Source of the DNA: Gammaproteobacteria bacterium
GTDB lineage: Bacteria > Pseudomonadota > Gammaproteobacteria > VBWC01
Direction: 5' to 3'
Length of the DNA: 64,000 nucleotides
Assembly (NCBI GenBank): GCA_023266115.1
Contig: JAHFRU010000001.1
Span: 271,905-335,904 of the forward strand
Within the stretch, counting starts at the first letter, position 1. Each line of letters starts with the position of its first letter. Below the pieces are notes generated by a model. That model had not been told where the DNA came from and ran no database searches. It saw only the letters and a list, made by a program, of their open reading frames with translations. Of the stretch, positions 1-16,164 are shown piece after piece. A program made the position numbers and the translations under genes.

Positions 1-190
1 GCACGGCGACGTCGCCTTCATCGGCGCGCGTCAGTCCGGCGATGATATTGATCAGCGTGGACTTGCCGGCGCCGTTCGGTCCGAGCAGGCCGAAAAACTC
101 GCCGCCGTTGATCGTAAGACTCACGCCGTTGAGCGCGTTCACGCTGCCGAAACGTTTGTGTACGGACTGTATGTTGATTGCCGGAGTCAT
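1..190 (-). CDS. ABC transporter ATP-binding protein, N-terminal part (gene continues beyond the window start)
   Basis: The reverse-strand translation from the ATG at 190-188 reads MTPAINIQSVHKRFGSVNALNGVSLTINGGEFFGLLGPNGAGKSTLINIIAGL... This includes the Walker A motif GPNGAGKST. The frame differs from the ORF-track entry 18..266. Confidence 0.8.
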   Translation of the reverse strand, partial: MTPAINIQSVHKRFGSVNALNGVSLTINGGEFFGLLGPNGAGKSTLINIIAGLTRADEGDVAV

Positions 191-383
191 GGTGAGCGGA
201 TGCATCAAGGCGGACTATGATAACCAATCCGCGGGGCAAGGGTGCAGCCGGTGAAACAGCAGGCATGATAACGGCAACTTGTTACGCCCGGCGGGGATTG
301 CCAACGCGCACCGGCAATACAGTGGCCCCGGCAGCGCGATACACGAACGGTATCGCGCTGCCGGGGTCTACCGGTGGCAGTGT

Positions 384-1712
384 TTACTTGCCAAGAACGC
401 GCAGCTCGACGCGGCGATTCTGGGCCTGACCTTCCTTGCTGCCGTTATCCGCGATCGGCCGGGTCGGGCCGTAACCCTTGGCCTCGACATTCGCCTCCGC
501 AACACCGTTCTTCACCAGAAACGCCCGTACCGCCTCGGCACGCTGCTGCGAGAGCGCGGTGTTATAGGGTTCCGTTCCGCGGTTATCGGTGTGGCCGCTG
601 ATCTCGATGCGCAGTTCCGGACGGTCGCGCAACGTCGCGGCAATGCCCGTCAATACCGTTGAGGATGCCCTCGTCAGTAATGCCGAGTCATATTCAAACG
701 TCACGCCACGTAGCGTGAACGTCTCGCCGGTAACCGAGAACGTAAGACCTGGCGGGACGGACTGATCCATCGCGCTCAGGCAACCATTCGGATCGACCTT
801 GTCACCCGCCCTGGAGCCGGCGCACTGATCCTTGCTGTCCACAATGCCGTCGGCATCGCTGTCCATCTCGCAGCCGAGGGCGCTTACCTTCATGCCGGCA
901 GGCGTGCCGGGGCAGCGGTCGAGGTCGTCGACGACGCCGTCGCGATCGCTGTCGATCTCGCAGCCTTGCGCATTTACCTTGCGCGCGGCCGGCGTCTTCG
1001 GGCAGCGGTCCTTGCTGTCGGTGACGCCGTCATGATCGGCATCCACCATGCAACCGGTGCCGTCCACCGGCGTTCCGGCCGGCGTATCCGCACAGCGATC
1101 GTCGGCATCGTTGACGCCGTCGCCGTCGCTGTCGCCGACCGGTACCGCTGCCGCCTGCGTTTTTCCGCCGAACGGGATCGCCAAACCGACGTTAAACACC
1201 CAGTCCGCGAAGCTGCTCTGACCCGCGCGGCTGGAGTTATCGTCGTCATACCGGTAGCGCGCGTCGACACGCAGCGCAATGCCGCGCTCGTTCAGCGTAT
1301 GCATCACGCCACCGCCGGCGCTGGCGAGCAGGTTGGCGGCGCTCTTGCCAGGGACTTCGGTATCCATCGTGCCGATACCGAGCAGGCCGTAGGGATTCCA
1401 GCGGCGTTCCCGGCTGAAGAAATACAGGCCGTCGAGTTCGATGCCGCCCTGATCGTATTCACCGCTGGTGTTGGTGAAATCCATCGCCGAGTGGATCGCA
1501 TTCAGCTCGAGATTCCACTTGTCGTTGATCAGCCGCCCGATACCGAGCTGCGTATTGAAGCCGTCATCCGCGGCACGGCCGCTGTCAGACGCGATGTAGC
1601 CCAGCGCCGGCGCCAGATACCACTTGCGTTCCGTCTGATCGTCTGCGGTGGCGACCATGCTCAGGCCGAGAAAGGCACAGGCCAGAATGGCCAGGAATTT
1701 GTTGTTTATCAT
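384..1712 (-). CDS. OmpA-family outer-membrane protein with thrombospondin type-3 (TSP3) Ca-binding repeats
   Basis: It has a signal peptide and an N-terminal beta-barrel-like region. It has about five tandem DxDxDGxxDxxDxC repeats (DSDGDGVNDADDRC, DADHDGVTDSKDRC, DSDRDGVVDDLDRC, DSDADGIVDSKDQC). The C-terminal OmpA domain reads ...RIEISGHTDNRGTEPYNTALSQQRAEAV. Confidence 0.85.
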   Translation of the reverse strand: MINNKFLAILACAFLGLSMVATADDQTERKWYLAPALGYIASDSGRAADDGFNTQLGIGRLINDKWNLELNAIHSAMDFTNTSGEYDQGGIELDGLYFFSRERRWNPYGLLGIGTMDTEVPGKSAANLLASAGGGVMHTLNERGIALRVDARYRYDDDNSSRAGQSSFADWVFNVGLAIPFGGKTQAAAVPVGDSDGDGVNDADDRCADTPAGTPVDGTGCMVDADHDGVTDSKDRCPKTPAARKVNAQGCEIDSDRDGVVDDLDRCPGTPAGMKVSALGCEMDSDADGIVDSKDQCAGSRAGDKVDPNGCLSAMDQSVPPGLTFSVTGETFTLRGVTFEYDSALLTRASSTVLTGIAATLRDRPELRIEISGHTDNRGTEPYNTALSQQRAEAVRAFLVKNGVAEANVEAKGYGPTRPIADNGSKEGQAQNRRVELRVLGK

Positions 1713-2279
1713 TGGTAACTCCCCGCTCCCAAAAAAAATCTTTGATCCCCGCGCAGCTGACCCTGTGGATCGGCTGCAACAAGCGCCCGTATCCCTGATA
1801 TCCGGTGTGCGTGCCGCGTCTCCGCTAAAAAGCGGGATTGCGCGGAGCTCTCTGGCGATTCATGCCGCGTCTCGCACCAGACGTTACCGCGCCTGTCAGG
1901 CGGCGTCGTCAATGCGAGCTGCCGGCGCGTATTGCATGCGAGGACATTTTTCCGCGGATTGTTCTTGTCGCCGGCACCGTCAGGGACGCTCCCGACAGGG
2001 AAGCCTATGATACCGAATCTGCGGTCGAATGGCCCGGGCCGGCCGAAAAAAAACGCCTGTTACCCGGTGTAAGCGGTAGAAAGCATAAAAGTCGCGGGGA
2101 ATATCCGGCGCCCGCCGGTGGCGGCGGGTGCGTGGGGTGCTCCCGGATACCCCTTGTGCGGGTAACCGGGCGACGATTGCTACGCTCTTTCCGGCCAGGA
2201 TCGACGCGTCTTGCGCTTGCCGGTTTTCTGTCCAGCGCACGGCGCCTTGATCAACGGTTTATCCGACAGCAGCGTCGCC

Positions 2280-2960
2280 TCATGGCGATTCGATCGACAG
2301 CAGTTTGCACAGCTTTAGCGGGTCATCGACGCGTCGTTCACCGCGCAGCATCACGGGTATCGTCAGTAACAGAATTCGGAGATCCAGGAGCAGGGACCTG
2401 TTGTCGATGTACCACAGATCCAATTGAATGCGTTGTGACCAGCCTAGCCAGGTATTCCCGCTGATCTGTGCAATTCCCGTGAGTCCCGGCCGCAAGGCCA
2501 GTCGCCGCGACTCAACATCGCCGTAAGCGCTGGCCTGACAGGGGATATCCGGCCGTGGTCCGACGAGCGACATGTCGCCCGTCAGGACATTGACCAGCTG
2601 TAGTAATTCATCAAGCTTGCTGCGTCTCAATAAATGGCCTACCCGGGTAACACGCGGATCCCCCCAGCGGATTTCCTCGTCCGGAAAGATCCCGAAGCTG
2701 TGGGTGTGAAAGGTCCGTAGCTTGTATATCGTAAATGGCCGTCCGCCACGGCCAACGCGAGATTGCGTGAAAATCGGACTCCCGGACGAATCGAGGCGTA
2801 TCAGCAACATCAACAGCAGCATTAGCGGCAGCGCCATCAAGAACAAGGGAATCGCGATCACCAGATCGACAATCCGTTTGGTATATTCGCCGTGCAGAGT
2901 GCCGCCTGTCCGGTCGGATACGGTAGAAAACACGCCCGTCGACTTGTTGATTTGTCTCAT
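2280..2960 (-). CDS. Undecaprenyl-phosphate sugar phosphotransferase (bacterial sugar transferase, PglC/WbaP C-terminal-domain type)
   Basis: The 226-aa product has an N-terminal TM helix (LVIAIPLFLMALPLMLLLMLLI). The conserved core reads RPFTIYKLRTF...MSLVGPRP...PGLTG. Its start overlaps the upstream stop as ATGA. Confidence 0.85.
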   Translation of the reverse strand: MRQINKSTGVFSTVSDRTGGTLHGEYTKRIVDLVIAIPLFLMALPLMLLLMLLIRLDSSGSPIFTQSRVGRGGRPFTIYKLRTFHTHSFGIFPDEEIRWGDPRVTRVGHLLRRSKLDELLQLVNVLTGDMSLVGPRPDIPCQASAYGDVESRRLALRPGLTGIAQISGNTWLGWSQRIQLDLWYIDNRSLLLDLRILLLTIPVMLRGERRVDDPLKLCKLLSIESP

Positions 2961-4267
2961 CAGTCGCCCACTCGACTGGAGCCAGCCTGTGGCTCCAGTC
3001 GTCCCGTCACGGAATATCCTGTATTCAAGCGCTCCCTGGCTCCAAGGTCGGCGTAAAGACGGGTCATCTCCGCAAAATACCGATCACCGCTGTAATGTCG
3101 TTCAACAAACAGGCGCGCCCTGCGGCCGAAGAATTCCACTTCGCTATCCGGCATTGAAGCAACTTCATCCAGACGGCTGGCCAGCGCTGCGGCATCACGC
3201 GGGGGAAACAACCAGCCGTTATCGCCGTCGATGACCATTTCCGGAATGCCGCCAATGCCGGCAGCAATGACCGGTTTGCCGCTGGCAAACGACTCCAGAA
3301 TCGCGAGAGACGCGTTCTCGTACCATTCCGACGGCACTACGACAGCACGTGCATTGCCGATCAATGAGGCCAGCAGGGCCGGCGGTACGTGATCGATGAA
3401 TTCCACCGCGATGTGCAGTTGGTCAGCGAGTGTCTGCAGAAAATTGCGTTCCGCTCCCCAGCCGACGATCTTGATCGCTGCTTTCGCCTGCGCCGCGGCG
3501 CGTATAAAAGTCGCGAGTCCTTTCTCGGGCGCGAGCCGGCCGAAATATAAAAAATACCTGCCCGGCTGGAAGGATGGTGTCCACAGCCGTTCGTCGAAGA
3601 AGTTACGGAGATGAACCAGTCGTTCGCCCGGCCATCCCCACGCAATAAATTTGTCAAACATAAACCGGCTGGGACATATCAGTCTGTCGATATGACGCTC
3701 ATAAAACCCTGCCCAGCGGTGAAACACGGACTCCATCGCGACCAGTGAACTCACCGCTGCTGAACCATGCAGGCAGCGCTTGCGGATCAGCGGCAACACC
3801 CGGCCGCCACGGCATTCTTCGCACACGCTGTTGCCATCGTACATTTTGTAGGCGGGACAGAGCAGCTTGTAATCGTGAGCGGTCATCACGATCGGCACAC
3901 TGCGGCGACCCAGTACCGGCAGGATCGCGGGAGAAATATGGTGATAGATACTGTGAATATGTACCACGTCCGGACTGTAACGATCGAGAAGACGGCTGAT
4001 GTTGGCGCGGGCCTCGCGTGAATACAGCACCTTGCCCGCCAGCCGCAGCCGGGTGGGCAACGAGTAGTCGCCGCCGAACTCGAGCTCATCGACGAAGAAT
4101 TCCTGCCATGGAGTAGCTAGGTTGTCGCGATGCTTCATGGAGAATACCGCCGTCTGCCAGCCGCGTGCCTGAAACAAACGATCCTGATCCAGGAATAACG
4201 CGTCGGAGCCGGCGCGGCGGTAGTGATAGTTATTGATCGAGAGGAGTCGCTTCACGCCGTTATTCAC
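2960..4267 (-). CDS. Glycosyltransferase family 4 (GT1/GT4 fold)
   Basis: The C-terminal motif EWYENASLAILESFASGKPVIAAGIGGIPEMV is the GT4 EX7E region. The likely start is the GTG at 4267 (VNNGVKRLLSINNYHYRR) or at 4255. The ORF-track start at 4315 would overlap the upstream gene. Confidence 0.85.
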   Translation of the reverse strand: MNNGVKRLLSINNYHYRRAGSDALFLDQDRLFQARGWQTAVFSMKHRDNLATPWQEFFVDELEFGGDYSLPTRLRLAGKVLYSREARANISRLLDRYSPDVVHIHSIYHHISPAILPVLGRRSVPIVMTAHDYKLLCPAYKMYDGNSVCEECRGGRVLPLIRKRCLHGSAAVSSLVAMESVFHRWAGFYERHIDRLICPSRFMFDKFIAWGWPGERLVHLRNFFDERLWTPSFQPGRYFLYFGRLAPEKGLATFIRAAAQAKAAIKIVGWGAERNFLQTLADQLHIAVEFIDHVPPALLASLIGNARAVVVPSEWYENASLAILESFASGKPVIAAGIGGIPEMVIDGDNGWLFPPRDAAALASRLDEVASMPDSEVEFFGRRARLFVERHYSGDRYFAEMTRLYADLGARERLNTGYSVTGRLEPQAGSSRVGD

Positions 4268-4284
4268 ACACTCGTTGTTCGCCG

Positions 4285-5043
4285 TTAAATCCGTAGACCG
4301 CCTTTCCACAAGCATCGATCGCCGGTGATGCCGGCCGTAAAACTATCTCGTCCATGCAGCACACGAGCGTCGTGGAAGAACACAGCATCGCCTTCATTGA
4401 GCCGGACCGCAAGCGGCAGTGACCGGTCGACGGTGTCCTGTAGAAAACAATGAAAGTTTTCCACGATGGCAAGCAGATCCGGCGATACCTGATTTCTCAT
4501 CGTATAATAATTCCACCGCAGAAACGGCCCGTCCGGAGGCGTAGCGATGATCGTCGATTCGACATGCACGCCCGCTTTATTAAATCGCACGATGGCCCCG
4601 GTCAGCATGGTCAGCAATTCGGGTCTTTCGGTCGCCAGCACCGACAGTAAACGTTGGCCGTCCAGAAACAGGGTTGCGCCGCCGCGCGGCGCGGCGCGGT
4701 GGCAGACCATGAATACGATCGGCGGCGGATCGTAAAGGTAGGCGCCATCGGTGTGCAACGGTTGCGCAGAACTGGAGTGGCGAAAACGTTGCGGGAATTC
4801 CGGGTTGAATTCAACGTCGGACCACAAATTCCCGGTCGCGAGGCCGGTCTTGACGTCCTCGTCCACGGGCACACGCTCGCATTGTTCTGCCAGCGCCTCG
4901 TCCCAGAATTCCCGGTGGCGACCCACCGCCGGATGCGTGCGCGCGACAACCAGCCGCGCCGTCCGGCAGGCGGCGGTGATACGTGCGCCGACATCCGGGG
5001 GGGAATCCAGCTTGCGCAGGTCAAGTCTACAGAACGCTTCCAT
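4285..5043 (-). CDS. TauD/TfdA-family Fe(II)/2-oxoglutarate-dependent dioxygenase-like protein
   Basis: The 252-aa product carries an HTDGAY-type motif (PLHTDGAYLYDPP) and a later His (FFHDARVLHGRD). This matches the TauD and clavaminate-synthase-like fold. A 3-nt spacer separates it from the upstream stop. Confidence 0.65.
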   Translation of the reverse strand: MEAFCRLDLRKLDSPPDVGARITAACRTARLVVARTHPAVGRHREFWDEALAEQCERVPVDEDVKTGLATGNLWSDVEFNPEFPQRFRHSSSAQPLHTDGAYLYDPPPIVFMVCHRAAPRGGATLFLDGQRLLSVLATERPELLTMLTGAIVRFNKAGVHVESTIIATPPDGPFLRWNYYTMRNQVSPDLLAIVENFHCFLQDTVDRSLPLAVRLNEGDAVFFHDARVLHGRDSFTAGITGDRCLWKGGLRI

Positions 5044-5046
5044 ACG

Positions 5047-6315
5047 TCAGTCCGCGACCCTGGCACTCTTATGGGATCGGTGCAAGGCTGTGCGGCCGGT
5101 CTGGTCAACCACCTCTGAAAATTGATCCACGCAATTTCGCATGGCCAGTAAATCGCGCTCCCCGACATCCGAATGCAACGGCAACGTGAGCAGGCGTCGG
5201 GCAAAATCGCCAGCGGCCGGGTGGGCGCCTGAACGCACGTAAGTCGCGGTGGCCGGAATCTCCGAGAGCAAACGACGATACATTCGCGACGGCCCCAGTC
5301 CTTGCTGCCAAAGGCTGGCAAACAATCGATCGCGTTCCGTTTCTGACCGCAGCAGCAACGGATACCGCCATAGCCGGTCGGTGCGTGTGGCCGTGCTGCA
5401 ATCGGCGGCGGCCATGCGCATGCTGTGCGTTGCGACATCAACCCAGGGTACGTCCGGCCCGCGCAGTATCGACTCGATGGTATCTTCGCGCCATCGCCCC
5501 GTACTTCTGTGGCGGTCGATCGCCTGTGGCAGGAGTCTGTGCAGACGGCGCGGAAACGGCTCGAGTTCCGTCAATTCACGATAGGAAATGGCGTCGACCG
5601 GGACTCTCGCCACACGTGTAAGAAACCGGTAAACCGCAGGTTGAATCGAGAGGTTGTAGAGTAAACAGTTAGCCCGATGCATGAGCCGCCTAACCCCGGT
5701 TTCGCTTCTATCGGCGGGCTGCGGGGGTAGCGCGTTCGCTGCGGTTGAGCCGAGTGTCTGCAGCAGAACTCCGCCGCGCCGCAGTGATACCGGCTTGCCA
5801 CGTCCGAAGCTGATAACAACCAGGTCGGCGCTCGAGCGGACTTGCATGTCCAGCGGGAAAGCGTGCGCGTGGTCTTCAATGAGTAACGGCCCGTCGCTGC
5901 CGAGCATGCGGCGCAGTGCCTGGTCGTTCGACGGGAGCCCGAGAAATCTGATCGACAGTAAGGCAACCGTGTGCCGGGTGATGGACCTTTCCACACTTAC
6001 AGGGTCGAGCCAGGGTAGCTCCGGTAGCGTGTCCGCGAGCACCGGCTGCACGCCGGCGAAGACCGCGGCGCTCACGACATCCGGACACGCATACGCCGGC
6101 ATCACCACTTCGGGGCGCGTCGTCGTAGCACGATTTGCCGCAAGTTTCAGCGCTGCTGCCAGCGCCGCCGTTCCCGAGCCGTACCAGTGGGCAAGATACC
6201 CCGGAAACTGCAGATTTGCCGCCGCGGACGAGGCCTTGTGCCCGGCCGACCGCGGACTGATGCCCCGCAACGGTACGCGTTCACCTGCCGGGCGCAACTG
6301 ACGCGGGATCATCAT
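5047..6315 (-). CDS. DegT/DnrJ/EryC1/StrS-family PLP-dependent sugar aminotransferase or dehydratase-like protein (divergent)
   Basis: The sequence SGTAALAAALKLA...VVMPAYACPDVVSAAVFAGVQPVLADT...LLIEDHAHAF...VISFGRGKPVS fits this fold. The proposed start MMIPRQ at 6315 overlaps the upstream stop as ATGA. The ORF-track start at 6354 is over-extended. Confidence 0.65.
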   Translation of the reverse strand: MMIPRQLRPAGERVPLRGISPRSAGHKASSAAANLQFPGYLAHWYGSGTAALAAALKLAANRATTTRPEVVMPAYACPDVVSAAVFAGVQPVLADTLPELPWLDPVSVERSITRHTVALLSIRFLGLPSNDQALRRMLGSDGPLLIEDHAHAFPLDMQVRSSADLVVISFGRGKPVSLRRGGVLLQTLGSTAANALPPQPADRSETGVRRLMHRANCLLYNLSIQPAVYRFLTRVARVPVDAISYRELTELEPFPRRLHRLLPQAIDRHRSTGRWREDTIESILRGPDVPWVDVATHSMRMAAADCSTATRTDRLWRYPLLLRSETERDRLFASLWQQGLGPSRMYRRLLSEIPATATYVRSGAHPAAGDFARRLLTLPLHSDVGERDLLAMRNCVDQFSEVVDQTGRTALHRSHKSARVAD

Positions 6316-7475
6316 GCACAGGTCTTGCGAGCTGAATATTCTTCGAGCGGGCATATCCCGGCAATTATTTCCGCCATGGTCTCCAATTCTTCCTGCGACA
6401 CTTCAGTAAGCAATGGCAGGCAGAGAATCCGCTTGCTCAGCGATTCCGCGACAGGCATGGCTGGTCCGGACCTGATGAACGGCAGTCGATTGAGCGTCGG
6501 ATTGAAGTAGATATGGGGAATGAATCCAGCGTTGGTCAACGCGGCCATTGCAGTTTCGCGCAGCTCGGGTGTTGGAAATACGACCGGAAAAAAGGCGTGA
6601 TTCACCCGGGCCAGCGCATTGAATTGTTGCAGCCCGGTTGCGCTGGACGCCTCCAGCCGCAGCCGAAGTTTCTCGGCGCTTTGACGCCGGTGCGTCATCA
6701 CCGCATCGATATCGTCGAGCAGGCACAACCCCACTGCTGCGTGCAACTCGCTCAGCCGGCCATTGATACCCGGCGCCTGCACCTGGCCGTCGACCGCCTG
6801 GCCATTGTTGACGGCCAACCGGGCACGCCGACAGTGTTCCGCGTCGCGCAGCACAACCGCGCCGCCCTCAACGGTATGAAAAAGCTTGGTGGCGTGCAGG
6901 CTGAGTACCGACGCATCGCCGCAGGCAAGCACACTCCGGTCCAGGTAATCAACGCCGAAAGCGTGTGCCGCGTCGTAGATGCACAACAGTCCGCGACGGG
7001 CGGCTATCTGATCGATCGCGTCGATATGGCACGGGTTACCGAAGGTATGGGTGGCGAGAATGGCGCGCGTATTCACGGTTATTGCCGCTTCGATTTGGCG
7101 CGGATCGATGTTATAGGTGCGGGCATCGATATCGGCGAACTGCGGAGTGAGCCCGAGCCACGCGAGTGAGCTGACGGTCGTTACCCAGGAGAAGGGTGAG
7201 GTGACAACCGAGCCTGACACTCCCAGCGCGTGCAGGGCGACCTGCAGTGCCAGCGTGCCACTGCTGGTTAGCACCAGGTACTCGACGCCGAGATAGTCGG
7301 CGAGCCGTTCCTCCAGCTCGCGCACCATCGGCCCGTTATTCGTCAACCGGCCGGATGCAAAGATTTCCCTCGCCAGCTGTTCGAAGCGATCGCGGTTCGG
7401 CAAGTTGATCAGCGTTGACGCGCCTGCTGATGGCGTCGTTATGCGACGATCGGTTCGAGTGACGTGGCCATGCAT
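6312..7475 (-). CDS. DegT/DnrJ/EryC1/StrS-family aminotransferase (nucleotide-sugar aminotransferase)
   Basis: The sequence reads GPMVRELEERLADYLGVEYLVLTSSGTLALQVALHALG...FADID...ILATHTFGNPCHIDAIDQIAARRGLLCIYDAAHAFG...LSLHATKLFHTVEGG. The exact start is uncertain because the ORF overlaps the upstream gene by 37 nt. Confidence 0.85.
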   Translation of the reverse strand: MHGHVTRTDRRITTPSAGASTLINLPNRDRFEQLAREIFASGRLTNNGPMVRELEERLADYLGVEYLVLTSSGTLALQVALHALGVSGSVVTSPFSWVTTVSSLAWLGLTPQFADIDARTYNIDPRQIEAAITVNTRAILATHTFGNPCHIDAIDQIAARRGLLCIYDAAHAFGVDYLDRSVLACGDASVLSLHATKLFHTVEGGAVVLRDAEHCRRARLAVNNGQAVDGQVQAPGINGRLSELHAAVGLCLLDDIDAVMTHRRQSAEKLRLRLEASSATGLQQFNALARVNHAFFPVVFPTPELRETAMAALTNAGFIPHIYFNPTLNRLPFIRSGPAMPVAESLSKRILCLPLLTEVSQEELETMAEIIAGICPLEEYSARKTCA

Positions 7476-8626
7476 GCAAGGTTACCCTCCATTTCTGCGG
7501 CACTTGGGAAAGTGAATAGTGCGTAACCCAATATATCTTTCGAGGATGTAAACCGGCTCACAGTCGCGCCGGTCGACGTTGTCAGTTGCATATCGATCGT
7601 ATAGGGATTCAGGTGTGGCGCCATTCGCAGCCCGCGCAGCTTGCCAGGCGATCTGGAATGAATCATCCACGAGGCGTGAAATCCCGGTGGTTTTTCCGGG
7701 CGGAAAGGCAATGTCACCGGTGCGCCGAGCGATTGCATGATGACGATATCCGCCATGTCGACCCCCGTGTGATGTTGAATGAGCAGCGGCAGGCAGTTAC
7801 CGCCGGCGCGTGGCCCGATCTCGATCAACCACAGGTCACCGTTGTTATCGAACATGGCATCGAGATTGAAGACCAGGTTGTCAATGCCAAGTAACGCCAT
7901 GAGCCGTTGCAGCTGCTTCAGAAGCGTCTCCCGTCGTTCCGCGGCAAGGTGGCCCGGGAAGCTCTCGCCAACCGGCGCGTATGCCGAACACTCGCTATCG
8001 AAATGCTCATCGCCGAGGCAAGTAAAGGCGAGTTTGCCATCGACAACCACGCCATCGCCGGCGATCTGGGCGCTGTCCCGCGCTATCCACTGTTCAACGA
8101 TTACGCTTGCGCTACGCGAGTAATGCTGCGCGTTGCGGAAAGCCTGGCCCATGTCGGCGGCATTGTCGACACGGCTCACGCCTTTACTTCCGGATGAATC
8201 GGCCGGTTTGACCATTACCGGAAGCCCCATGGAGCGTGCCACCTCGCACGCCTCTGGAAGATCGGCAGCAACGGCGAACCCGGGCGTATTAAAGCCGTGA
8301 TCTCGCAGGAAAGCGCGAAAGAGAGCCTTGTTCGTCAGTACGTGGACCGCGGCCGGAGGGCATCCGGGAAGACCCATTTGATCGGCTACGTACGCCGCAG
8401 TCCACGCCGCGGGATCGGACGCAAACGCGATAATGCCGTCAATCCTCAATTTCCTGGCCAATGTAAGGACCGCCCGGTGGTCTGTCGTGCTGACGTTATA
8501 ATACTCGTGCGCGAGCCGATGCCCTGGATTATGCGGCACATAATCCACCGTGATCACCCGGTGACCCAGCTTGAGAGCACGCAAGATTACCGGCAGCTGG
8601 AATATGGATCCGCCGAGGATTAGCAA
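7439..8626 (-). CDS. ATP-grasp domain protein (carboxylate-amine ligase type)
   Basis: The 395-aa product opens with a Rossmann-like N-terminus (MLILGGSIFQLPVILRALKLGHRVITVDY). Its ATP-grasp core reads LTNKALFRAFLRDHGFNTPGF...GLPVMVKPADSSGSKGVSRV...LWLIEIGPRAGGN. It is the first gene of the minus-strand operon. Confidence 0.8.
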   Translation of the reverse strand: MLILGGSIFQLPVILRALKLGHRVITVDYVPHNPGHRLAHEYYNVSTTDHRAVLTLARKLRIDGIIAFASDPAAWTAAYVADQMGLPGCPPAAVHVLTNKALFRAFLRDHGFNTPGFAVAADLPEACEVARSMGLPVMVKPADSSGSKGVSRVDNAADMGQAFRNAQHYSRSASVIVEQWIARDSAQIAGDGVVVDGKLAFTCLGDEHFDSECSAYAPVGESFPGHLAAERRETLLKQLQRLMALLGIDNLVFNLDAMFDNNGDLWLIEIGPRAGGNCLPLLIQHHTGVDMADIVIMQSLGAPVTLPFRPEKPPGFHASWMIHSRSPGKLRGLRMAPHLNPYTIDMQLTTSTGATVSRFTSSKDILGYALFTFPSAAEMEGNLACMATSLEPIVA

Positions 8627-8959
8627 CGTTGACAGATTTCCCCCTTGGCGCCCCGTCGGTATTTTTTTATTTCAGGGCTACGGTTACTACTGCTTGTTTC
8701 AATCTAAACGCGGATCGGATTCCCGTCAATAAACGCGTGCTCGACCGGTTGGCCCAGGTGCGATCCGGTGCTAACGGCCGATGAGGATGACGGACCGCCG
8801 AACTTCGGATATTTGTGCCACCTTTGCCGGGAAGGTTTTGATTTCCCATTGACGTGCAGGCCGGCGTCCGCGCAGTTTTTTGTTTTGCCGCAACGACTTA
8901 AGGTGTGCGGGTGTTGTTAACTGCGTGCGATGGTTTACGTCGGGATCGCCAGGGAATCC

Positions 8960-10522
8960 TCATGCCCCGGACTCCATTTTATTCCGTCCGGGCCAGGCTT
9001 TCTTTTGCGCTTGACGCTTCGCAGTCTTTTTGATCGCGGGCGGCGGTTTGATCACCTGCTTATCGAGCAGCAGGTTCAGCGTGTAGCGGATGCCGAATCC
9101 GGTGGTATCGGTCGGTACGTGCGCCAGTCCGCCTTTATTACTACTGGCGCTCAGGTCGACGTGCAGCCAAGGGATATCCTTGCCGACGAAGCGGCTCAAG
9201 AAACGCGTCGCGAGGATGTGATCCGCCGTGCCGTCGAGGGCGCACTGCTTGATATCGGCGATGTCGCTGTCAAGCGCCTTGTCGTAATCGGCATCGGTCG
9301 GAAACGGCCAGACGCGCTCGCCGCTGTCGCGCCCGGCCGCAATCACGTCGGCCAGCATCTCGTCGCGATTGGTAAACGCGCCGCTGTAGGCGGTGCCCAG
9401 CGCATGTACGCAGGAACCGGTCAGCGTTGCATAATCGATGATCAGGTCCGGTTTGGCTTGTGAGGCGATCGCCAGCGTATCGGCCAGCACCATGCGGCCC
9501 TCGGCATCGGTATGCACCACTTCAATCGTCGTGCCGTTGCTCGCCGTCACGATGTCGTTTGGCTTGTAGGCCTTGGGGCCGACGTGGTTCTGCGCCAGAG
9601 CGAGCCAGCAGTCGACGGCGATGTCGGCCTTGATCCCGGTAAGCGCCAGCAGCGTGCCGAGCGCAACAGCGCTGCCGGCCATGTCTTCGTGCATGCCGTA
9701 CATGAACTTCGCCGGTTTCACGTTGACGCCGCCGGTGTCGTAACAAATACCCTTGCCGACCAGCGCCAGTTTTCGTTTGGCATGGCGCGGCCGGTATTGC
9801 AGATGCACAATGCCGGCATCCGCCGCGGCGCTGCCCTGCGCAACGGCGAGAAATGCGCCGGCCTTTTTGCGCTTTAATGCGGCGGTATCGAGAAACTGCA
9901 TGCGCCAGCCGTGTTGCCGGGTGAGCGTCGCAATACGTTTGCGATACATCGCCGGCGTCAGCTCGTTCGACGGCAGTATCGTCAGCTCGCGCGCAAGATT
10001 ATTACCGGCCGCCTCGGCCAGGGTACGGGCAAGATCGATTTGTTTGCCCACGCCGTGCAGTGCGACCGTGGCCAGGCGCTTCGGTTTCGGTTGCTTGCTT
10101 TTGAATTGCGGCAGCTCGGCCGATGCGGCGAGCAGCGCCGCCACCAGCGCCAGCGCCGCGTGTTCGGTGTCGGCGGGGGTTAGCCCGGCGAACAGTACAT
10201 CAATATTGGCGGGATCAGCGCCGAGCAGCGCCGCAACCGCCTTGCGCGCCAGTGTCAGCCGTTGGAACGCGCTGCTGTCCGCTGCCAGCCAGATGCACGC
10301 CACCCGGGTACCGGTACCGTTCGGCAGCTCCGTCACGAATGGCTCCGTCGTGCCCACCCGGTCGCCGAGGCGCTCAAAACGCTTCTTGATGATGTCTCGG
10401 TACGCAAAAACCGGCCAGGCCGGTTTGGCGTCGCTACACGGCAATACCACGATCAACGCGTCAATAGAATCAACGGCCTTTTCGGCCGGCGCGTTCAGGT
10501 TCTGTTTTACCTTGATTTTCAT
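8960..10522 (-). CDS. pepA: Leucyl aminopeptidase, peptidase family M17
   Basis: M17 signature NTDAEGRMVLADTL and the catalytic region VGKGICYDTGGVNVKP...HEDMAGSA. The product is 520 aa. Confidence 0.9.
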   Translation of the reverse strand: MKIKVKQNLNAPAEKAVDSIDALIVVLPCSDAKPAWPVFAYRDIIKKRFERLGDRVGTTEPFVTELPNGTGTRVACIWLAADSSAFQRLTLARKAVAALLGADPANIDVLFAGLTPADTEHAALALVAALLAASAELPQFKSKQPKPKRLATVALHGVGKQIDLARTLAEAAGNNLARELTILPSNELTPAMYRKRIATLTRQHGWRMQFLDTAALKRKKAGAFLAVAQGSAAADAGIVHLQYRPRHAKRKLALVGKGICYDTGGVNVKPAKFMYGMHEDMAGSAVALGTLLALTGIKADIAVDCWLALAQNHVGPKAYKPNDIVTASNGTTIEVVHTDAEGRMVLADTLAIASQAKPDLIIDYATLTGSCVHALGTAYSGAFTNRDEMLADVIAAGRDSGERVWPFPTDADYDKALDSDIADIKQCALDGTADHILATRFLSRFVGKDIPWLHVDLSASSNKGGLAHVPTDTTGFGIRYTLNLLLDKQVIKPPPAIKKTAKRQAQKKAWPGRNKMESGA

Positions 10523-10614
10523 TTAGAATATGCCGGGTTCACCTTGACCAAGGCCATTAAAACACAGATCATATCGCGCTCACGCGATTTCTGGTATCCA
10601 AGGTAAGCTGTCTC

Positions 10615-11619
10615 ATGAATAACACTGATAAGAAACGGCTGCTCCGCGACATGCTGTTTTCCCGGCGTTTCGAGGAGCACTGTTACGTAGGCTATGTCGA
10701 ACGCAAAATCGGCGGATTCCTGCACCTGTATCCGGGTCAGGAGGCCTGCGCCCATGGCGTGATGGCGGCAGCAAAGCCGGGATTCGATTATGTGATTACC
10801 GGCTACCGGGATCATGTCCACGCCATGCTGAGCGGCGCCGACCCCAAGGCCGTCATGGCCGAGCTCTACGCGAAAGAAACCGGCACCTGCAAGGGCCGCG
10901 GCGGCTCCATGCATATATTTGATGTCGAGCACCGCTTCATGGGCGGCTATGCGCTGGTCGGCGGGCCGTTTCCGCTGGCGGCCGGCATGGCCAAGGCCAT
11001 CAAGCTGAAGGGCGGCGAAGAGATCGCGATCTGCTTTCTCGGCGATGCCGCCAACAACCAGGGCAGCTTTCATGAGGCGCTGAACATGGCGTCGGTATGG
11101 AAACTGCCGGTGCTCTATGTCTGCGAAAACAATCTTTATGGTATCGGCACGCGCATTGACCGTTCGACGGCGGTGCTGGATCAGTACAAGCGCGTCGCCG
11201 GTTACAACATTCCATCCGAGCAGGTCGACGGCCAGGACATCGAGATCGTCTACAAAGCCGCGCAGAAAGCGGTCGATCATGTCCGTTCCGGCACGGGACC
11301 GTATTTTCTCGAGCTGATGACCTACCGCTATCGCGGCCACTCGATGTCCGATTCCAACACCTACCGCTCCAAGGACGAAGAGAAGGAGTGGATCGAGCGC
11401 GACCCGATCAACATCCTGCGCGAGCGTTTGATCAAGGCCAAGGTGCTGACGATGGCCGAGTTCAAGGCGATGGACAAAGAGATACTCGATGAAATAGACA
11501 ACGAAATCGTGCCGTTCGCCGAACAGTCGCCGGAACCGGACGTCGCCGAACTGGAGAAGTATCTGTTCGCCGAGAACGATCCCTGGGTAACGGGCGGTGC
11601 ACAGGGAGAGGCGAGCTGA
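10615..11619 (+). CDS. pdhA: Pyruvate (2-oxoacid) dehydrogenase E1 component, alpha subunit (TPP-dependent)
   Basis: The sequence reads YPGQEACAHGV...GGSMHIFD...LGDAANNQGSFHEALNMASVWKLPVLYVCENNLYGIGT...YRYRGHSMSD. Confidence 0.9.
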   Translation: MNNTDKKRLLRDMLFSRRFEEHCYVGYVERKIGGFLHLYPGQEACAHGVMAAAKPGFDYVITGYRDHVHAMLSGADPKAVMAELYAKETGTCKGRGGSMHIFDVEHRFMGGYALVGGPFPLAAGMAKAIKLKGGEEIAICFLGDAANNQGSFHEALNMASVWKLPVLYVCENNLYGIGTRIDRSTAVLDQYKRVAGYNIPSEQVDGQDIEIVYKAAQKAVDHVRSGTGPYFLELMTYRYRGHSMSDSNTYRSKDEEKEWIERDPINILRERLIKAKVLTMAEFKAMDKEILDEIDNEIVPFAEQSPEPDVAELEKYLFAENDPWVTGGAQGEAS

Positions 11620-12599
11620 TGGCCGAGATACGCTTCTGGGAGGCGATCCGCCGTGCCCATGACGAAGAGATGGCGAACGATCCGCTGGTGATCGCGATGG
11701 GCGAAGACATCGGCGTCGCCGGTGGCACCTACAAGGCGACGCAAGGGCTGTACGACAAATACGGCCCTGAACGGATCATCGACACGCCGATTTCAGAGAA
11801 TGGCTACACCGGCCTCGGTATAGGCGCGTCGTTTCTCGGCGTGCGGCCGATCATCGAGATCATGTCGGTCAACTTCGCCTGGCTGGCGCTGGATCAGATC
11901 GCCAATTCCGCCGTCAAGGTGCGTTACATGTCCGGTGGCCAGCTCACAGCGCCAGTGGTGATCCGCTCACCGGGTGGCACCGCGCATCAGCTGGGCGCGC
12001 AGCATTCGGCGCGCATGGAAAAGGTATTCATGGGCATCGCCGGTCTAAGAGTTGTCACTCCGTCGACCCCGCGCCAGGCCTACGGCATGCTGAAGTCCGC
12101 CGTGCGCTGCAACGACCCGGTGTTCATCTATGAACACGAGCTGATGTACAACATGAAGGGCGAGGTGCCTGACGCTGAATTCTTCCATCCGCTGGTAGGC
12201 TCGGAGGTTGCGCGCGAAGGCAAGGACGTGACGCTGTTCGGTTACAACATCTCGGTGCACTGGTGTCTGGAGGCGGCGAAGCTGCTGGCCGACAAGCACG
12301 GCATCAATTGCGAGGTCGTTGACCTGTACTGCTTAAGCCCGCTGGATCGGGCAGGCATTAAAAAGTCGGTATCGAAGACGCATCGTGCAATCATCGTCGA
12401 AGAGGCCGAACCCGCCGTGGGCGTAGGCGCGGAGGTCATGGCGATTATCAATGAAGAATGTTTCTTCGAACTCGACGCCGCGCCGAAACGCGTCTCCGCC
12501 GTCAATATCCCGATCCCCTACAACCACGCCCTCGAAAAAGCCACGATCCCGCATGCCAAGGATGTCGTGAAGGCGGTGCGGGCGATGATGGGGAAGTAA
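11619..12599 (+). CDS. pdhB: Pyruvate (2-oxoacid) dehydrogenase E1 component, beta subunit
   Basis: It is coupled to pdhA by a TGATG overlap. The sequence reads IAMGEDIGVAGGTYKATQGLYDKYGPERIIDTPISENGYTGLGIGAS... Confidence 0.9.
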   Translation: MAEIRFWEAIRRAHDEEMANDPLVIAMGEDIGVAGGTYKATQGLYDKYGPERIIDTPISENGYTGLGIGASFLGVRPIIEIMSVNFAWLALDQIANSAVKVRYMSGGQLTAPVVIRSPGGTAHQLGAQHSARMEKVFMGIAGLRVVTPSTPRQAYGMLKSAVRCNDPVFIYEHELMYNMKGEVPDAEFFHPLVGSEVAREGKDVTLFGYNISVHWCLEAAKLLADKHGINCEVVDLYCLSPLDRAGIKKSVSKTHRAIIVEEAEPAVGVGAEVMAIINEECFFELDAAPKRVSAVNIPIPYNHALEKATIPHAKDVVKAVRAMMGK

Positions 12600-16100: not shown

Positions 16101-16164
16101 CGAAATGGCTCGCCGGTTGCTGTCGCGCCTGCGGCGTTCGCAAAAGATCGCGGTGAAAAAGTAG
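13141..16164 (+). CDS. Fused dihydrolipoamide acyltransferase (E2) and dihydrolipoamide dehydrogenase (E3) in one 1007-aa polypeptide
   Basis: It is a single uninterrupted ORF. It has two lipoyl domains (..VETDKAIMDVEVFREGYLSGP.. twice) and a peripheral-subunit-binding domain (ATPYARKLAGETGVDLNMLAGSGPRNVI). The E2 catalytic core carries DHRVVNGA. A short Gly/Pro linker (GAGGPAIPAGNWN) follows. The E3 part has an FAD-binding motif (YDVVIIGGGPGGEDCA), the redox disulfide CLWRGCIPSK, a second Rossmann motif (LAIVGGGAIGVEMAQ) and a C-terminal HPHPTQTE. Confidence 0.85.
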   Translation: MSQPYTIKMPQLSDTMTEGVVVSWEKNIGDRIERGDIVATVETDKAIMDVEVFREGYLSGPRAAVDSVVLVGGALAYLVASANEVVAEAGAAPVASGDEEASAAPAAASASAAPQASAEPEGVTHIIKMPQLSDTMTEGVVVEWQKQVGDKIERGDIVASVETDKAIMDVEVFREGFLSGPLAEADSVIPVGAAMGYLVEARAQVQSGAMAPVAAAAAEPQKKKKTAASTSSATTAGTRPASRPKSKLATPYARKLAGETGVDLNMLAGSGPRNVIVGADVHRTAPVVPAGAAFPVVEVPGAGRPMTSLERNIAQAMSGALSMPTFRVSLNAQPTALISAAKKAGISVSVAIARACALAMQKHPNMNWAYQPVDKLVERANVDIGVAVAADDGGLVVPILRNCESRTLAELNADWSDLVPRARKRRLKPVEFQNPTFMVSNMGMLGVTYFDAIPTPGTAAILAISSADERGMPLTITADHRVVNGADVAMYLNTLKQYIEQPDGWMGAGGPAIPAGNWNYDVVIIGGGPGGEDCARELVEHGLKVAMINDAPFPGGECLWRGCIPSKAWRAAADRIRDRVHDARLGIKGTTTAKLDWKMLEKTRRGVLETRGAMALKTDTSLKIKFIQGFARFENDHTVFVDTSGNQKDPHARAPQGAGKKGQRITFGCAVIATGAPPFVPPIPGAAEGLKSGGVLTSDTVWFLKQAPKKLAIVGGGAIGVEMAQIFQDFGAQVTLVEVQERILAEVEPEVAKNLATILNDDPRLTVHTAAKVEKISGKPGRMELTFKPAEGRAKKLAVDYVIMATGKRPVLDPLNLAAAGVAIDKGVINADASCRTSMPHIFAVGDVIGGYMLAHTAGQQGRVAAATISGESAKYDQDKDCGVIFTRPQAAFVGLSVAQAKQKNIDAVEVKMPMSIDAKAMITGETLGMIKLVADKASRRIIGVHFLTDHADTLIGEAVMMVAGQLTLDQVAHAIHPHPTQTELFGEMARRLLSRLRRSQKIAVKK

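What the first reader, a model, noticed from the sequence alone, without database searches (positions are those of the whole stretch)
2280..8626. Tightly coupled six-gene glycan-tailoring operon combining two DegT enzymes, an ATP-grasp ligase and a TauD-like dioxygenase with an initiating sugar transferase
All six genes are on the minus strand. Their junctions are ATGA overlaps, a 3-nt spacer and overlapping ends, which indicates one translationally coupled unit. The gene order is ATP-grasp, DegT aminotransferase, divergent DegT-like, TauD/TfdA-like dioxygenase, GT4, then a PglC/WbaP-type phosphotransferase. That content suggests synthesis of an amino sugar. The amino group would be acylated with an amino acid or carboxylate by the ATP-grasp enzyme. 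The sugar may be hydroxylated by the 2OG dioxygenase. The product would be loaded on undecaprenyl phosphate and extended by one sugar. A TauD-family enzyme and an ATP-grasp ligase together in a nucleotide-sugar pathway is uncommon. It points to a non-standard sugar decoration on an O-antigen, capsule or protein-glycosylation unit.
Basis: partly seen in the sequence, partly recalled or inferred. Interest (0 to 1): 0.62.

Follow-up and report, generated by a model that had tools for sequence, protein, structure and literature searches.

The report
Rare six-gene sugar-tailoring cassette
This is a real, tightly packed six-gene operon, rare and probably transferred between lineages as a unit, that most likely builds a lipid-linked, unusually decorated amino sugar; its iron/2-oxoglutarate oxygenase belongs to a small, uncharacterised enzyme family that sits beside sugar-initiating transferases in many bacterial phyla.

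Summary
Six intact minus-strand genes (2280-8626) encode an ATP-grasp ligase, a DesI-like DegT aminotransferase, a divergent DegT-like PLP enzyme with catalytic Lys and Asp intact, a short TauD-like Fe/2OG oxygenase with an intact triad, a GT4 and a small monotopic phosphoglycosyl transferase. Junctions are ATGA or TGATG overlaps or a 3-nt spacer.

The same cassette recurs in about 10 other uncultured beta/gammaproteobacterial contigs with different flanks. The GT4 is variable. No flippase, polymerase, ligase or 4,6-dehydratase lies nearby.

The DegT + ATP-grasp pair is a widespread module, with precedents in B. cereus Pat/Pyl and Neisseria PglB2.

The TauD-like enzyme is probably not a simple terminal hydroxylase. 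Its family (about 137 clusters among 1.84 billion representatives) lies within 3 kb of a small PGT in 53 of 77 genome loci. It is flanked by, and twice fused to, an aldo/keto-reductase-like protein. In this cassette the DegT-like enzyme takes that place. This suggests "oxidise to a carbonyl, then reduce or transaminate".

Product, substrates and acceptor remain unknown. I rate it a new variant of a known kind, with moderate interest.

The parts
8701..8729 (-). sigma-70-like promoter match (TTGACG-17-TAGATT) about 75 nt upstream of the ATP-grasp start
   Evidence: the only promoter-like hit in 1600-9100. It is a consensus match only, not proof of function.
7439..8626 (-). ATP-grasp ligase (395 aa, TTG start), L-amino-acid-ligase-like; predicted to amide-link a carboxylate to the sugar 4-amine
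   Evidence: best PDB matches 4dim and the L-amino acid ligase 3vot; 45-47% homologues lie directly after a DegT in L085 and L086.
6312..7475 (-). Canonical DegT/DnrJ/EryC1 sugar aminotransferase (387 aa), closest to DesI-type 4-aminotransferases
   Evidence: 279 bits, full length. (TIGR04427 DesI 255 bits, below its 650 cutoff). (DesI 2po3, E 1e-58). Lys and Asp are aligned.
5047..6315 (-). Divergent DegT-like PLP enzyme (422 aa) with SFGRGKP Lys motif and an insertion of roughly 100 aa
   Evidence: K174, D148 and S169 are invariant. AF2 pLDDT 87.5, nearest folds are the sugar aminotransferases WecE, PseC and WbpE; small family.
4285..5043 (-). Short TauD/TfdA-family Fe(II)/2-oxoglutarate oxygenase (252 aa)
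   Evidence: H97, D99, H230, T124 and R243 are invariant; pLDDT 94.8, nearest folds BBOX, TmpA, IsnB and GlaH; 137 clusters at E<=1e-30.
2960..4315 (-). GT4 (GT-B) glycosyltransferase; probable true start GTG 4255; a variable part of the cassette
   Evidence: It is absent in L006, and no clear match to this GT4 was found at that position in L004 and L090.
2280..2960 (-). Small monotopic phosphoglycosyl transferase (226 aa, PglC/WbaP-core type)
   Evidence: 189 bits; the Asp-Glu dyad and the PRP motif align with WbaP and PglC, and the diNAcBac fingerprint is absent.

Best explanation
A self-contained six-gene operon, probably transferred between lineages as a unit, that assembles an undecaprenyl-diphosphate-linked mono- or disaccharide. 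The reducing-end sugar is a non-standard, N-acylated amino (probably diamino) deoxyhexose.

Proposed steps:
1. The DesI-like DegT transaminates an NDP-4-keto-6-deoxyhexose made by a dehydratase encoded elsewhere. Enzyme class is shown; substrate is inferred.
2. The ATP-grasp ligase uses ATP to amide-link a carboxylic or amino acid to that amine, as Pyl and PglB2 do. Inferred from conserved DegT/ATP-grasp pairing and published precedent.
3. The TauD-like Fe/2OG oxygenase oxidises a C-H of the sugar to a carbonyl. The translationally coupled DegT-like PLP enzyme converts that carbonyl to a second amine. In most other lineages an AKR-like partner reduces the carbonyl instead. Inferred from the partner swap and the fusions.
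4. The small PGT transfers the finished sugar-1-phosphate to polyprenyl phosphate. Catalytic motifs are shown.
5. Where present, the GT4 adds one more sugar.

Flipping and the final acceptor (LPS, capsule or protein) depend on genes outside the cassette.
For: - Domains and catalytic residues are intact in all six proteins.
- Tight junctions occur here and in other lineages.
- The cassette recurs with unrelated flanks: between LAP and OmpA here and in L003, and next to RND pump genes in L080, L081 and L088.
- Purifying selection acts on all six genes.
- DegT/ATP-grasp pairs at 42-47% identity occur in a Marinobacter polysaccharide locus with RmlA/RmlB-like genes and in a Pseudomonas flagellar glycosylation island.
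- Pyl ligates 2-oxoglutarate to a UDP-4-amino sugar upstream of a small PGT (PMC11626204). PglB2 is an ATP-grasp/PGT fusion that makes GATDH (PMC11130364).
- The TauD-like gene lies within 3 kb of a small PGT in 53 of 77 loci.
- Its immediate neighbour is AKR-like in 54 of 77 loci, DegT-like in 5 and plain DegT in 3, never AKR and DegT-like together.
- Two AKR-TauD fusion proteins exist.
- Thirty positions are conserved between cassette-type and AKR-type TauD-likes, with only two conservative class differences. This argues for the same chemistry in both contexts.
- KanJ/KanK is a precedent for an Fe/2OG dioxygenase making a keto sugar that a reductase then processes (PMC5533434).
- The PGT is the best conserved cassette protein (58-70% identity). 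The cassette persists without a GT (L006).
Against: - No substrate or product is known for any of the six proteins.
- All structural neighbours of the TauD-like protein act on small amino-acid-like molecules, not sugars.
- The AKR-like partner has a His where canonical AKRs have the catalytic Asp, judged by eye, so its activity is unproven.
- No 4,6-dehydratase, flippase, polymerase or ligase lies in any cassette locus.
- Known monotopic PGTs use UDP-sugars, whereas the DegT looks most like dTDP-sugar enzymes.
- Which amine the ATP-grasp enzyme acylates cannot be deduced.
Confidence: 0.5

Rival explanations
1. The TauD-like enzyme simply hydroxylates the sugar or its acyl group as a terminal decoration. 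The DegT-like enzyme is an ordinary second aminotransferase acting on an unrelated keto position.
For: Hydroxylation is the default chemistry of TauD/CAS-like enzymes. The nearest folds (BBOX, TmpA, GlaH, VioC, AsnO) are hydroxylases.
Against: It does not explain why the family is almost always adjacent to, and sometimes fused with, an AKR-like oxidoreductase. It also does not explain why that partner is exchanged for a PLP enzyme exactly in this cassette, with a 3-nt spacer.
Confidence: 0.15
2. The TauD-like and DegT-like enzymes do not touch the sugar. They make the unusual acid or amino acid (for example a hydroxy- or amino-substituted acid) that the ATP-grasp ligase then attaches to the 4-amino sugar.
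For: All structural relatives of the TauD-like protein use small amino-acid-like or carboxylate substrates. DegT-family enzymes acting on non-sugar substrates are known (own knowledge: Campylobacter jejuni Cj1436 and Cj1437). The ATP-grasp enzyme resembles L-amino-acid ligases (LAL_C2, 3vot).
Against: The same TauD-like active-site signature occurs in 54 AKR-type loci. Only 3 loci outside the cassettes showed a recognisable ATP-grasp gene, so their product would have no evident ligase. The constant partner of the family is the PGT, not a ligase.
Confidence: 0.17
3. The cassette is not for a surface glycan. It makes a diffusible secondary metabolite (aminoglycoside- or nucleoside-like) or a cytoplasmic compound.
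For: No flippase, polymerase or ligase genes are nearby. Several copies lie next to RND efflux genes. DegT, ATP-grasp and Fe/2OG enzymes are common in antibiotic pathways.
Against: A membrane-embedded polyprenyl-phosphate phosphoglycosyl transferase is the most conserved member of the cassette. More distant homologues of the DegT-like, TauD-like and ATP-grasp proteins all sit in polysaccharide or glycosylation loci.
Confidence: 0.06
4. The grouping is fortuitous, or some genes are decaying.
For: None found. The TauD gene is the most diverged from the sister MAG (87% aa identity, dN/dS 0.39).
Against: The reading frames are intact, catalytic residues are kept, dN/dS is below 0.4 for all six genes, and order and coupling are conserved in about 10 independent contigs.
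Confidence: 0.02

Closest known systems
Bacillus cereus ATCC 14579 UDP-yelosamine operon (Pdeg dehydratase, Pat aminotransferase, Pyl ATP-grasp, small PGT); Hwang et al. 2014, as cited in PMC11626204
   Same: A sugar aminotransferase and an ATP-grasp ligase that N-acylates a UDP-4-amino sugar are encoded directly upstream of a small monotopic PGT.
   Different: The B. cereus operon carries its own 4,6-dehydratase and has no Fe/2OG oxygenase or second PLP enzyme.
Neisseria pgl core locus with PglB2 (ATP-grasp/PGT fusion), PglC aminotransferase, PglD dehydratase and PglA GT4-type galactosyltransferase (PMC11130364)
   Same: A compact module that makes an Und-PP-linked 4-N-acylated trideoxyhexose (GATDH) through an ATP-grasp enzyme. 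A single glycosyltransferase then extends it, and other genes are dispersed elsewhere in the genome.
   Different: In Neisseria the ATP-grasp domain is fused to the PGT, and a dehydratase and the flippase PglF lie in the locus. There is no TauD-like or second DegT-like gene. The window PGT lacks the diNAcBac-type fingerprint.
KanJ/KanK of kanamycin biosynthesis (Sucipto et al. 2012, as cited in PMC5533434)
   Same: An Fe/2OG dioxygenase converts a sugar carbon to a ketone, and a dedicated partner enzyme then processes that ketone. The same logic is proposed here for TauD-like + AKR-like or TauD-like + DegT-like.
   Different: KanJ is not a close relative (by my recollection it belongs to the PhyH branch; this was not tested). 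It acts on a free aminoglycoside, and its partner is a reductase, not an aminotransferase. It is an analogy only.
gamma-Butyrobetaine hydroxylase (BBOX) and TmpA, the nearest solved structures
   Same: Same double-stranded beta-helix fold and the HxD...H plus Arg cofactor site (TM about 0.75).
   Different: Identity is only 17-19%. The window protein lacks their N-terminal domain (252 aa against about 380 aa). Its genomic context is glycan assembly, not carnitine or phosphonate metabolism.
DesI (dTDP-4-amino-4,6-dideoxy-D-glucose transaminase)
   Same: Best sequence match of the canonical DegT (E 1e-58).
   Different: It scores 255 bits against the 650-bit equivalog cutoff, so it is not an orthologue by NCBIfam criteria.

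Membership tests
Monotopic phosphoglycosyl transferase (PF02397 Bac_transf, small PglC-like class) | Full-length match to the Bac_transf core with one N-terminal re-entrant hydrophobic helix | tested here: met
   188.7 bits, profile positions 1-178 of 179. The hydrophobic stretch IVDLVIAIPLFLMALPLMLLLMLLI is visible.
Monotopic phosphoglycosyl transferase (PF02397 Bac_transf, small PglC-like class) | Catalytic Asp-Glu dyad and the PRP nucleotide-binding motif | tested here: met
   query LDEL and GPRP align with the DE dyad (D93/E94 of PglC) and the PRP motif of WbaP and PglC.
UDP-diNAcBac-specific small PGTs (PMC10186338) | GLLLP loop motif plus a five-residue aromatic box (Y118, Y122, W150, F154, F197 of C. 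concisus PglC) | tested here: not met
   alignment to 8g1n. The loop reads EEIRW instead of GELLP. The box positions read Q, Y, W, I and one unaligned residue (2 of 5 kept). The authors' own HMM was not available.
TauD/TfdA Fe(II)/2-oxoglutarate dioxygenases (PF02668) | HxD...H facial triad, 2OG-binding Arg and Thr, and the double-stranded beta-helix fold | tested here: met
   (75.5 bits against a cutoff of 27). H97, D99, H230, T124 and R243 are invariant; pLDDT 94.8, with BBOX and TmpA as top folds.
gamma-Butyrobetaine / TmpA / TMLH hydroxylase equivalogs | Score above the NCBIfam equivalog cutoffs, and the N-terminal domain | tested here: not met
   57.8 bits against 414.75, 44.1 against 400 and 38.9 against 268. 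The match covers only the C-terminal core.
DegT/DnrJ/EryC1/StrS sugar aminotransferases: canonical gene 6312-7475 | Full-length PF01041 match with the Schiff-base Lys and the PLP-binding Asp | tested here: met
   (279 bits, profile 6-359 of 360). Lys in SLHATK and Asp in YDAAHA fall in the invariant columns.
DesI equivalog (TIGR04427) | Score at or above the curated cutoff | tested here: not met
   255.3 bits against a cutoff of 650.
DegT/DnrJ/EryC1/StrS sugar aminotransferases: divergent gene 5047-6315 | Schiff-base Lys, PLP Asp and the fold-type I sugar-aminotransferase fold | tested here: met
   K174, D148 and S169 are invariant in 17 sequences; top folds are WecE, PseC, WbpE and DesV (TM 0.57-0.63). 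The Pfam match covers only the N-terminal half.
DegT/DnrJ/EryC1/StrS sugar aminotransferases: divergent gene 5047-6315 | Acts on a nucleotide-linked keto sugar | not testable with these tools
   Context alone points to glycan work: cassette copies and, for the 30-39% homologues, PEP-CTERM-type EPS loci directly after a GT2.
ATP-grasp carboxylate-amine ligases | ATP-grasp fold with a pre-ATP-grasp N-terminal domain and an LAL-type C-terminal domain | tested here: met
   (PF07478, PF02222, PF13535, PF02786, and PF18603 slightly below its cutoff). (4dim E 1e-19, 3vot E 7e-17).
Pyl / PglB2-type sugar N-acyl ligases | Sequence orthology to Pyl or to the PglB2 ATP-grasp domain, and acylation of an NDP-4-amino sugar | not tested
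The support is contextual only: the DegT/ATP-grasp pairing.
GT4 glycosyltransferases | GT-B two-domain match (Glyco_transf_4 + Glycos_transf_1) | tested here: met
   102.6, 93.6 and 46 bits, all above the cutoffs.
Wzx/Wzy- or ABC-dependent O-antigen/capsule locus | Flippase, polymerase, chain-length regulator or ligase genes in the locus | tested here: not met
   None was found in the 64-kb window or within about 10 kb of the cassette in L080 and L081. ORFs under 250 aa between 31 and 42 kb were not all scanned.

The most novel reading that the evidence does not exclude
The TauD-like enzyme is a sugar C-H oxidase that generates the keto sugar itself, using O2 and 2-oxoglutarate. It would replace the NAD-dependent SDR dehydratase or dehydrogenase found in all textbook amino-sugar pathways. 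Its partner then either reduces the ketone (AKR-like: net epimerisation or deamination, as with KanJ/KanK) or transaminates it (DegT-like, as in this cassette). That would define a new, oxygen-dependent route to amino and epimeric sugars at the initiating step of glycan assembly, spread across Proteobacteria, Cyanobacteria and Bacteroidota. No SDR dehydratase was found in any cassette locus or in the window. Only 11 of 25 complete TauD loci that carry a DegT have one within 10 kb.
Probability: 0.2. Interest if true: 0.8.

Novelty: new variant of a known kind. Interest (0 to 1): 0.55.

Why it matters
If the model holds, the cassette makes a previously undescribed N-acylated diamino sugar as the first residue of a surface glycan.

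More generally, it exposes a small Fe/2OG oxygenase family, with its AKR-like or PLP partner, that is linked to initiating phosphoglycosyl transferases in several phyla. I found no published function for this family: no paper held both 'TauD' and 'bacillosamine', and a wider search on TauD, O-antigen, ATP-grasp and aminotransferase returned nothing on it.

That gives PGT substrate-annotation efforts (PMC11626204) a new, testable UDP-sugar target. It also offers a compact six-gene unit, convenient for heterologous expression, as a source of new sugar-tailoring chemistry.

Tried and rejected
- Searched for flippase, polymerase, ligase or dehydratase genes in the rest of the window. None was found, so the destination of the glycan cannot be named.
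- One context look-up failed because the protein is not on record.
- Tried to read the yelosamine paper. It is not held, so Pyl is cited only through PMC11626204 and no sequence comparison was possible.
- Literature searches for 'ATP-grasp + viosamine' and 'TauD + bacillosamine' found nothing. One query was malformed.
- An Rfam scan of 1-12000 found no riboswitch or leader. There are no tRNA genes in the window. Tandem repeats are irrelevant to the operon.
- Terminator-like hits inside the operon are fewer than in shuffled sequence, so they carry no weight.
- PGT substrate prediction fails: similarity to WbaP (UDP-Gal) and to PglC (UDP-diNAcBac) is equal (122 against 120 bits).
- I tested whether a missing dehydratase is a general feature of TauD-like loci. 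The result is mixed, 11 of 25 loci having one, so this is weak support at best.
- Pocket analysis of the AF2 model was not possible because model coordinates are not exposed to scripts.
- I considered taurine or phosphonate metabolism because of the TauD and TmpA similarity. I rejected it for lack of any Ppm, sulfonate or transport genes and because of the PGT linkage.


Full report
**Observation**

Pfam and NCBIfam give the following:
- 7439-8626: ATP-grasp ligase, with several ATP-grasp models and the L-amino-acid-ligase C-terminal domain.
- 6312-7475: full-length DegT/DnrJ/EryC1 aminotransferase (279 bits). Its best matches are DesI (TIGR04427, 255 bits, below the 650-bit cutoff) and PDB 2po3 (E 1e-58).
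- 5047-6315: divergent DegT-like protein. Only its N-terminal half matches PF01041 (76 bits).
- 4285-5043: 252-aa TauD/TfdA-family oxygenase (75.5 bits).
- 2960-4315: GT4.
- 2280-2960: 226-aa small Bac_transf phosphoglycosyl transferase (189 bits).

The junctions, read, are as follows:
- ATP-grasp/DegT: a 37-nt overlap, with a GGAGGG Shine-Dalgarno sequence before the DegT ATG.
- DegT/DegT-like: ATGA.
- DegT-like/TauD: a 3-nt spacer.
- GT4/PGT: TGATG.
- TauD/GT4: a 31-nt overlap from ATG 4315, or a 27-nt spacer from GTG 4255. The second fits the conserved N-terminus of a homologue better.

The only sigma-70-like match in 1600-9100 lies about 75 nt upstream of the first gene. Terminator-like hits are fewer than in shuffled sequence. 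No Rfam family matches 1-12000.

**A real unit, and one that appears in different genomic settings**

The window comes from a metagenome. A sister MAG (Gammaproteobacteria bacterium, VBWC01; L003) has the same genes in the same place, between an M17 leucyl aminopeptidase and an OmpA-family gene.

The order ATP-grasp, DegT, DegT-like, TauD-like, (GT), PGT recurs at 41-70% identity in several places:
- four further MAGs of beta- and gammaproteobacteria (L004-L007);
- L080 and L081, where it lies next to RND efflux genes;
- metagenome contigs L087-L090. L088 has the same upstream genes as L080 and may be the same lineage.

Gene calls in L080 and L081 show the same 4-nt overlaps and short gaps. 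The GT4 is the variable part. It is absent in L006, my GT4 query found no clear match at that position in L004 and L090, and it is split in L081. The PGT is the best conserved member (58-70%).

Against L003, all six genes have dN/dS of 0.16-0.39. Pseudogenes and chance adjacency are therefore excluded.

The rest of the 64-kb window holds housekeeping and signalling genes. I found no wzx, wzy, wzz, waaL, oligosaccharyltransferase or SDR 4,6-dehydratase in the window or within about 10 kb of any cassette copy.

**Module A: DegT plus ATP-grasp**

The ATP-grasp protein belongs to a large family, with more than 3000 hits. Two cultured-organism homologues at 45-47% identity lie immediately after a DegT that is 42-43% identical to the cassette DegT:
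- In Marinobacter the pair sits in a polysaccharide locus with typical RmlB- and RmlA-like genes (N-termini checked).
- In Pseudomonas citronellolis the pair sits in a flagellar glycosylation island that has no dehydratase of its own.

Published precedents exist for the chemistry. B. cereus Pat/Pyl ligates 2-oxoglutarate to a UDP-4-amino sugar directly upstream of a small PGT (PMC11626204). Neisseria PglB2, an ATP-grasp/PGT fusion, makes glyceramido-acetamido-trideoxyhexose (PMC11130364).

The acid used is unknown.

**Module B: TauD-like plus DegT-like**

The TauD-like protein keeps the Fe triad H97/D99/H230 and the 2OG ligands T124/R243. It folds with pLDDT 94.8. Its nearest structures are BBOX, TmpA, IsnB/PvcB, GlaH, KDO1 and VioC at 14-20% identity.

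The family is small:
- 62 clusters at 90% identity in 5.8 billion sequences;
- 137 representatives at E<=1e-30 among 1.84 billion.

A scan of one genome per species gave 77 loci in Proteobacteria, Cyanobacteria, Bacteroidota and other phyla.
- In 53 of them a small PGT lies within 3 kb. Among loci with full flanks the figure is 43 of 58.
- In 54 the immediate neighbour is a divergent aldo/keto-reductase-like gene. The catalytic Tyr and Lys appear to be kept, by my reading of the alignment. Its nearest PDB match there is an AKR annotated as 'DON 3-epimerase chain D'.
- In 5 the neighbour is the DegT-like gene. These are exactly the cassette loci.
- In 3 the neighbour is an ordinary DegT.
- AKR-like and DegT-like never occur together.

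Two proteins are AKR-TauD fusions (P0384 and P0396).

Cassette-type and AKR-type TauD-likes share 30 conserved positions. Only two conservative Phe/Tyr positions distinguish the classes. The oxygenase therefore probably does the same thing in both settings, and what follows differs.

An oxidoreductase and a PLP aminotransferase as alternative partners point to a carbonyl product. KanJ/KanK shows that an Fe/2OG dioxygenase can create a keto sugar for a partner enzyme (PMC5533434).

The DegT-like protein has the Schiff-base Lys (K174, motif SFGRGKP) and the PLP Asp (D148), both invariant. Its model has pLDDT 87.5, and its nearest folds are all sugar aminotransferases. Its more distant relatives (30-39%) sit directly after a membrane GT2 in exosortase/PEP-CTERM-type EPS loci. 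It is therefore a glycan-pathway enzyme and is likely active.

**The PGT**

The Asp-Glu dyad and the PRP motif align with WbaP and PglC. The published fingerprint of UDP-diNAcBac-specific PGTs is not met: the GLLLP loop is absent and only 2 of 5 aromatic-box residues are kept (against PMC10186338). Similarity to WbaP and to PglC is equal. The donor sugar cannot be read from the sequence.

**Synthesis**

The most economical reading is a portable cassette. It converts a keto-deoxyhexose nucleotide from the general pool into an N-acylated amino sugar. It adds a second nitrogen through an oxidise-then-transaminate step. It loads the product on polyprenyl phosphate and optionally adds one sugar.

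Shown here:
- gene content and intact catalytic residues;
- translational coupling;
- conservation as a unit;
- the linkage of the TauD-like family to PGTs and to AKR-like or PLP partners.

Inferred:
- every substrate and product;
- the order of the steps;
- which amine is acylated;
- the final acceptor.

The main rivals are two. In one, the oxygenase is a plain hydroxylase. In the other, module B makes the acid used by the ATP-grasp ligase. The small-molecule specificity of all structural neighbours favours the second rival. The lack of any ligase in most AKR-type loci argues against it.

The boldest reading still allowed is that the Fe/2OG enzyme itself supplies the keto sugar, which would explain the missing dehydratase. 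Support for that reading is weak and mixed.

**Verdict**

It is a new variant of a known kind of system, comparable to the PglB2 and Pyl type of initiating-sugar tailoring modules.

The most interesting element is not the ATP-grasp/TauD co-occurrence as such. It is the TauD-like family linked to PGTs, apparently unreported, and its exchangeable partner. I score interest at 0.55.

Noticed in passing
L008-L079 (for example L029 10001-12100; L014 9371-11700): In Cyanobacteria, Bacteroidota, Alphaproteobacteria, Psychrobacter and Pelagibacteraceae the TauD-like gene forms a conserved trio with a divergent aldo/keto-reductase-like gene and a small PGT. A PglD-like acetyltransferase and a DegT often follow. 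Two AKR-TauD fusion proteins exist (P0384, P0396).
   Followed up: partly
L083, L084, L092-L166 (for example L102 about 7800-10071): Homologues of the DegT-like protein at 30-39% identity lie immediately downstream of, and often overlap, a multi-TM GT2 gene. The surrounding loci are exosortase/PEP-CTERM-type EPS loci with export, beta-barrel, FemAB-like and deacetylase genes. No curated family covers this GT2/PLP-enzyme pair.
   Followed up: partly
window 4285-5043 against L003 10001-10756: The TauD-like gene is clearly more diverged from the sister MAG than its neighbours: 87% aa identity against 94-97%, dS 0.18 against about 0.10, and dN/dS 0.39. This could reflect local recombination or relaxed or diversifying selection.
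   Followed up: partly
window 13141-16164 (+): A 1007-aa protein combines two lipoyl domains, an E3-binding domain and a 2-oxoacid dehydrogenase acyltransferase domain with a complete dihydrolipoamide dehydrogenase (Pyr_redox) part. It is an E2-E3 fusion downstream of the E1 alpha and beta genes. The 360-bp tandem repeat at 13149-13827 is the duplicated lipoyl domain.
   Followed up: no
L086 6896-9773 and L085 2355-9194: A DegT/ATP-grasp pair homologous to the cassette pair sits in a Pseudomonas citronellolis flagellin glycosylation island, next to a 1173-aa double GT2. The same pair sits in a Marinobacter polysaccharide locus with RmlA/RmlB-like, HD-domain, nucleotidyltransferase and phosphatase genes.
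   Followed up: partly
L080 12681-15293 (-); L005 and L081 just after the PGT: Some cassette copies have recurrent neighbours. In L080 an AMP-binding enzyme, a carrier protein and an unknown 275-aa protein lie on the opposite strand. In L005 and L081 a protein of about 265-275 aa with weak lysozyme and peptidoglycan-binding hits directly follows the PGT.
   Followed up: no
window 384-1712 (-), repeat at 846-1038: The flanking OmpA-family protein carries thrombospondin type-3 repeats encoded by a 90-bp tandem repeat.
   Followed up: no
window 1838-2464 (+) / L001 12580-13182 (-): A 200-aa gene was called on the opposite strand overlapping the 3' end of the PGT gene. It has no Pfam hit and is probably spurious. 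In the sister MAG the DegT-like protein is named 'group 1 glycosyl transferase' and the ATP-grasp protein 'putative carbamoyl-phosphate-synthetase'. The first name does not fit the PLP-enzyme evidence, and the second reflects only the shared ATP-grasp fold.
   Followed up: no
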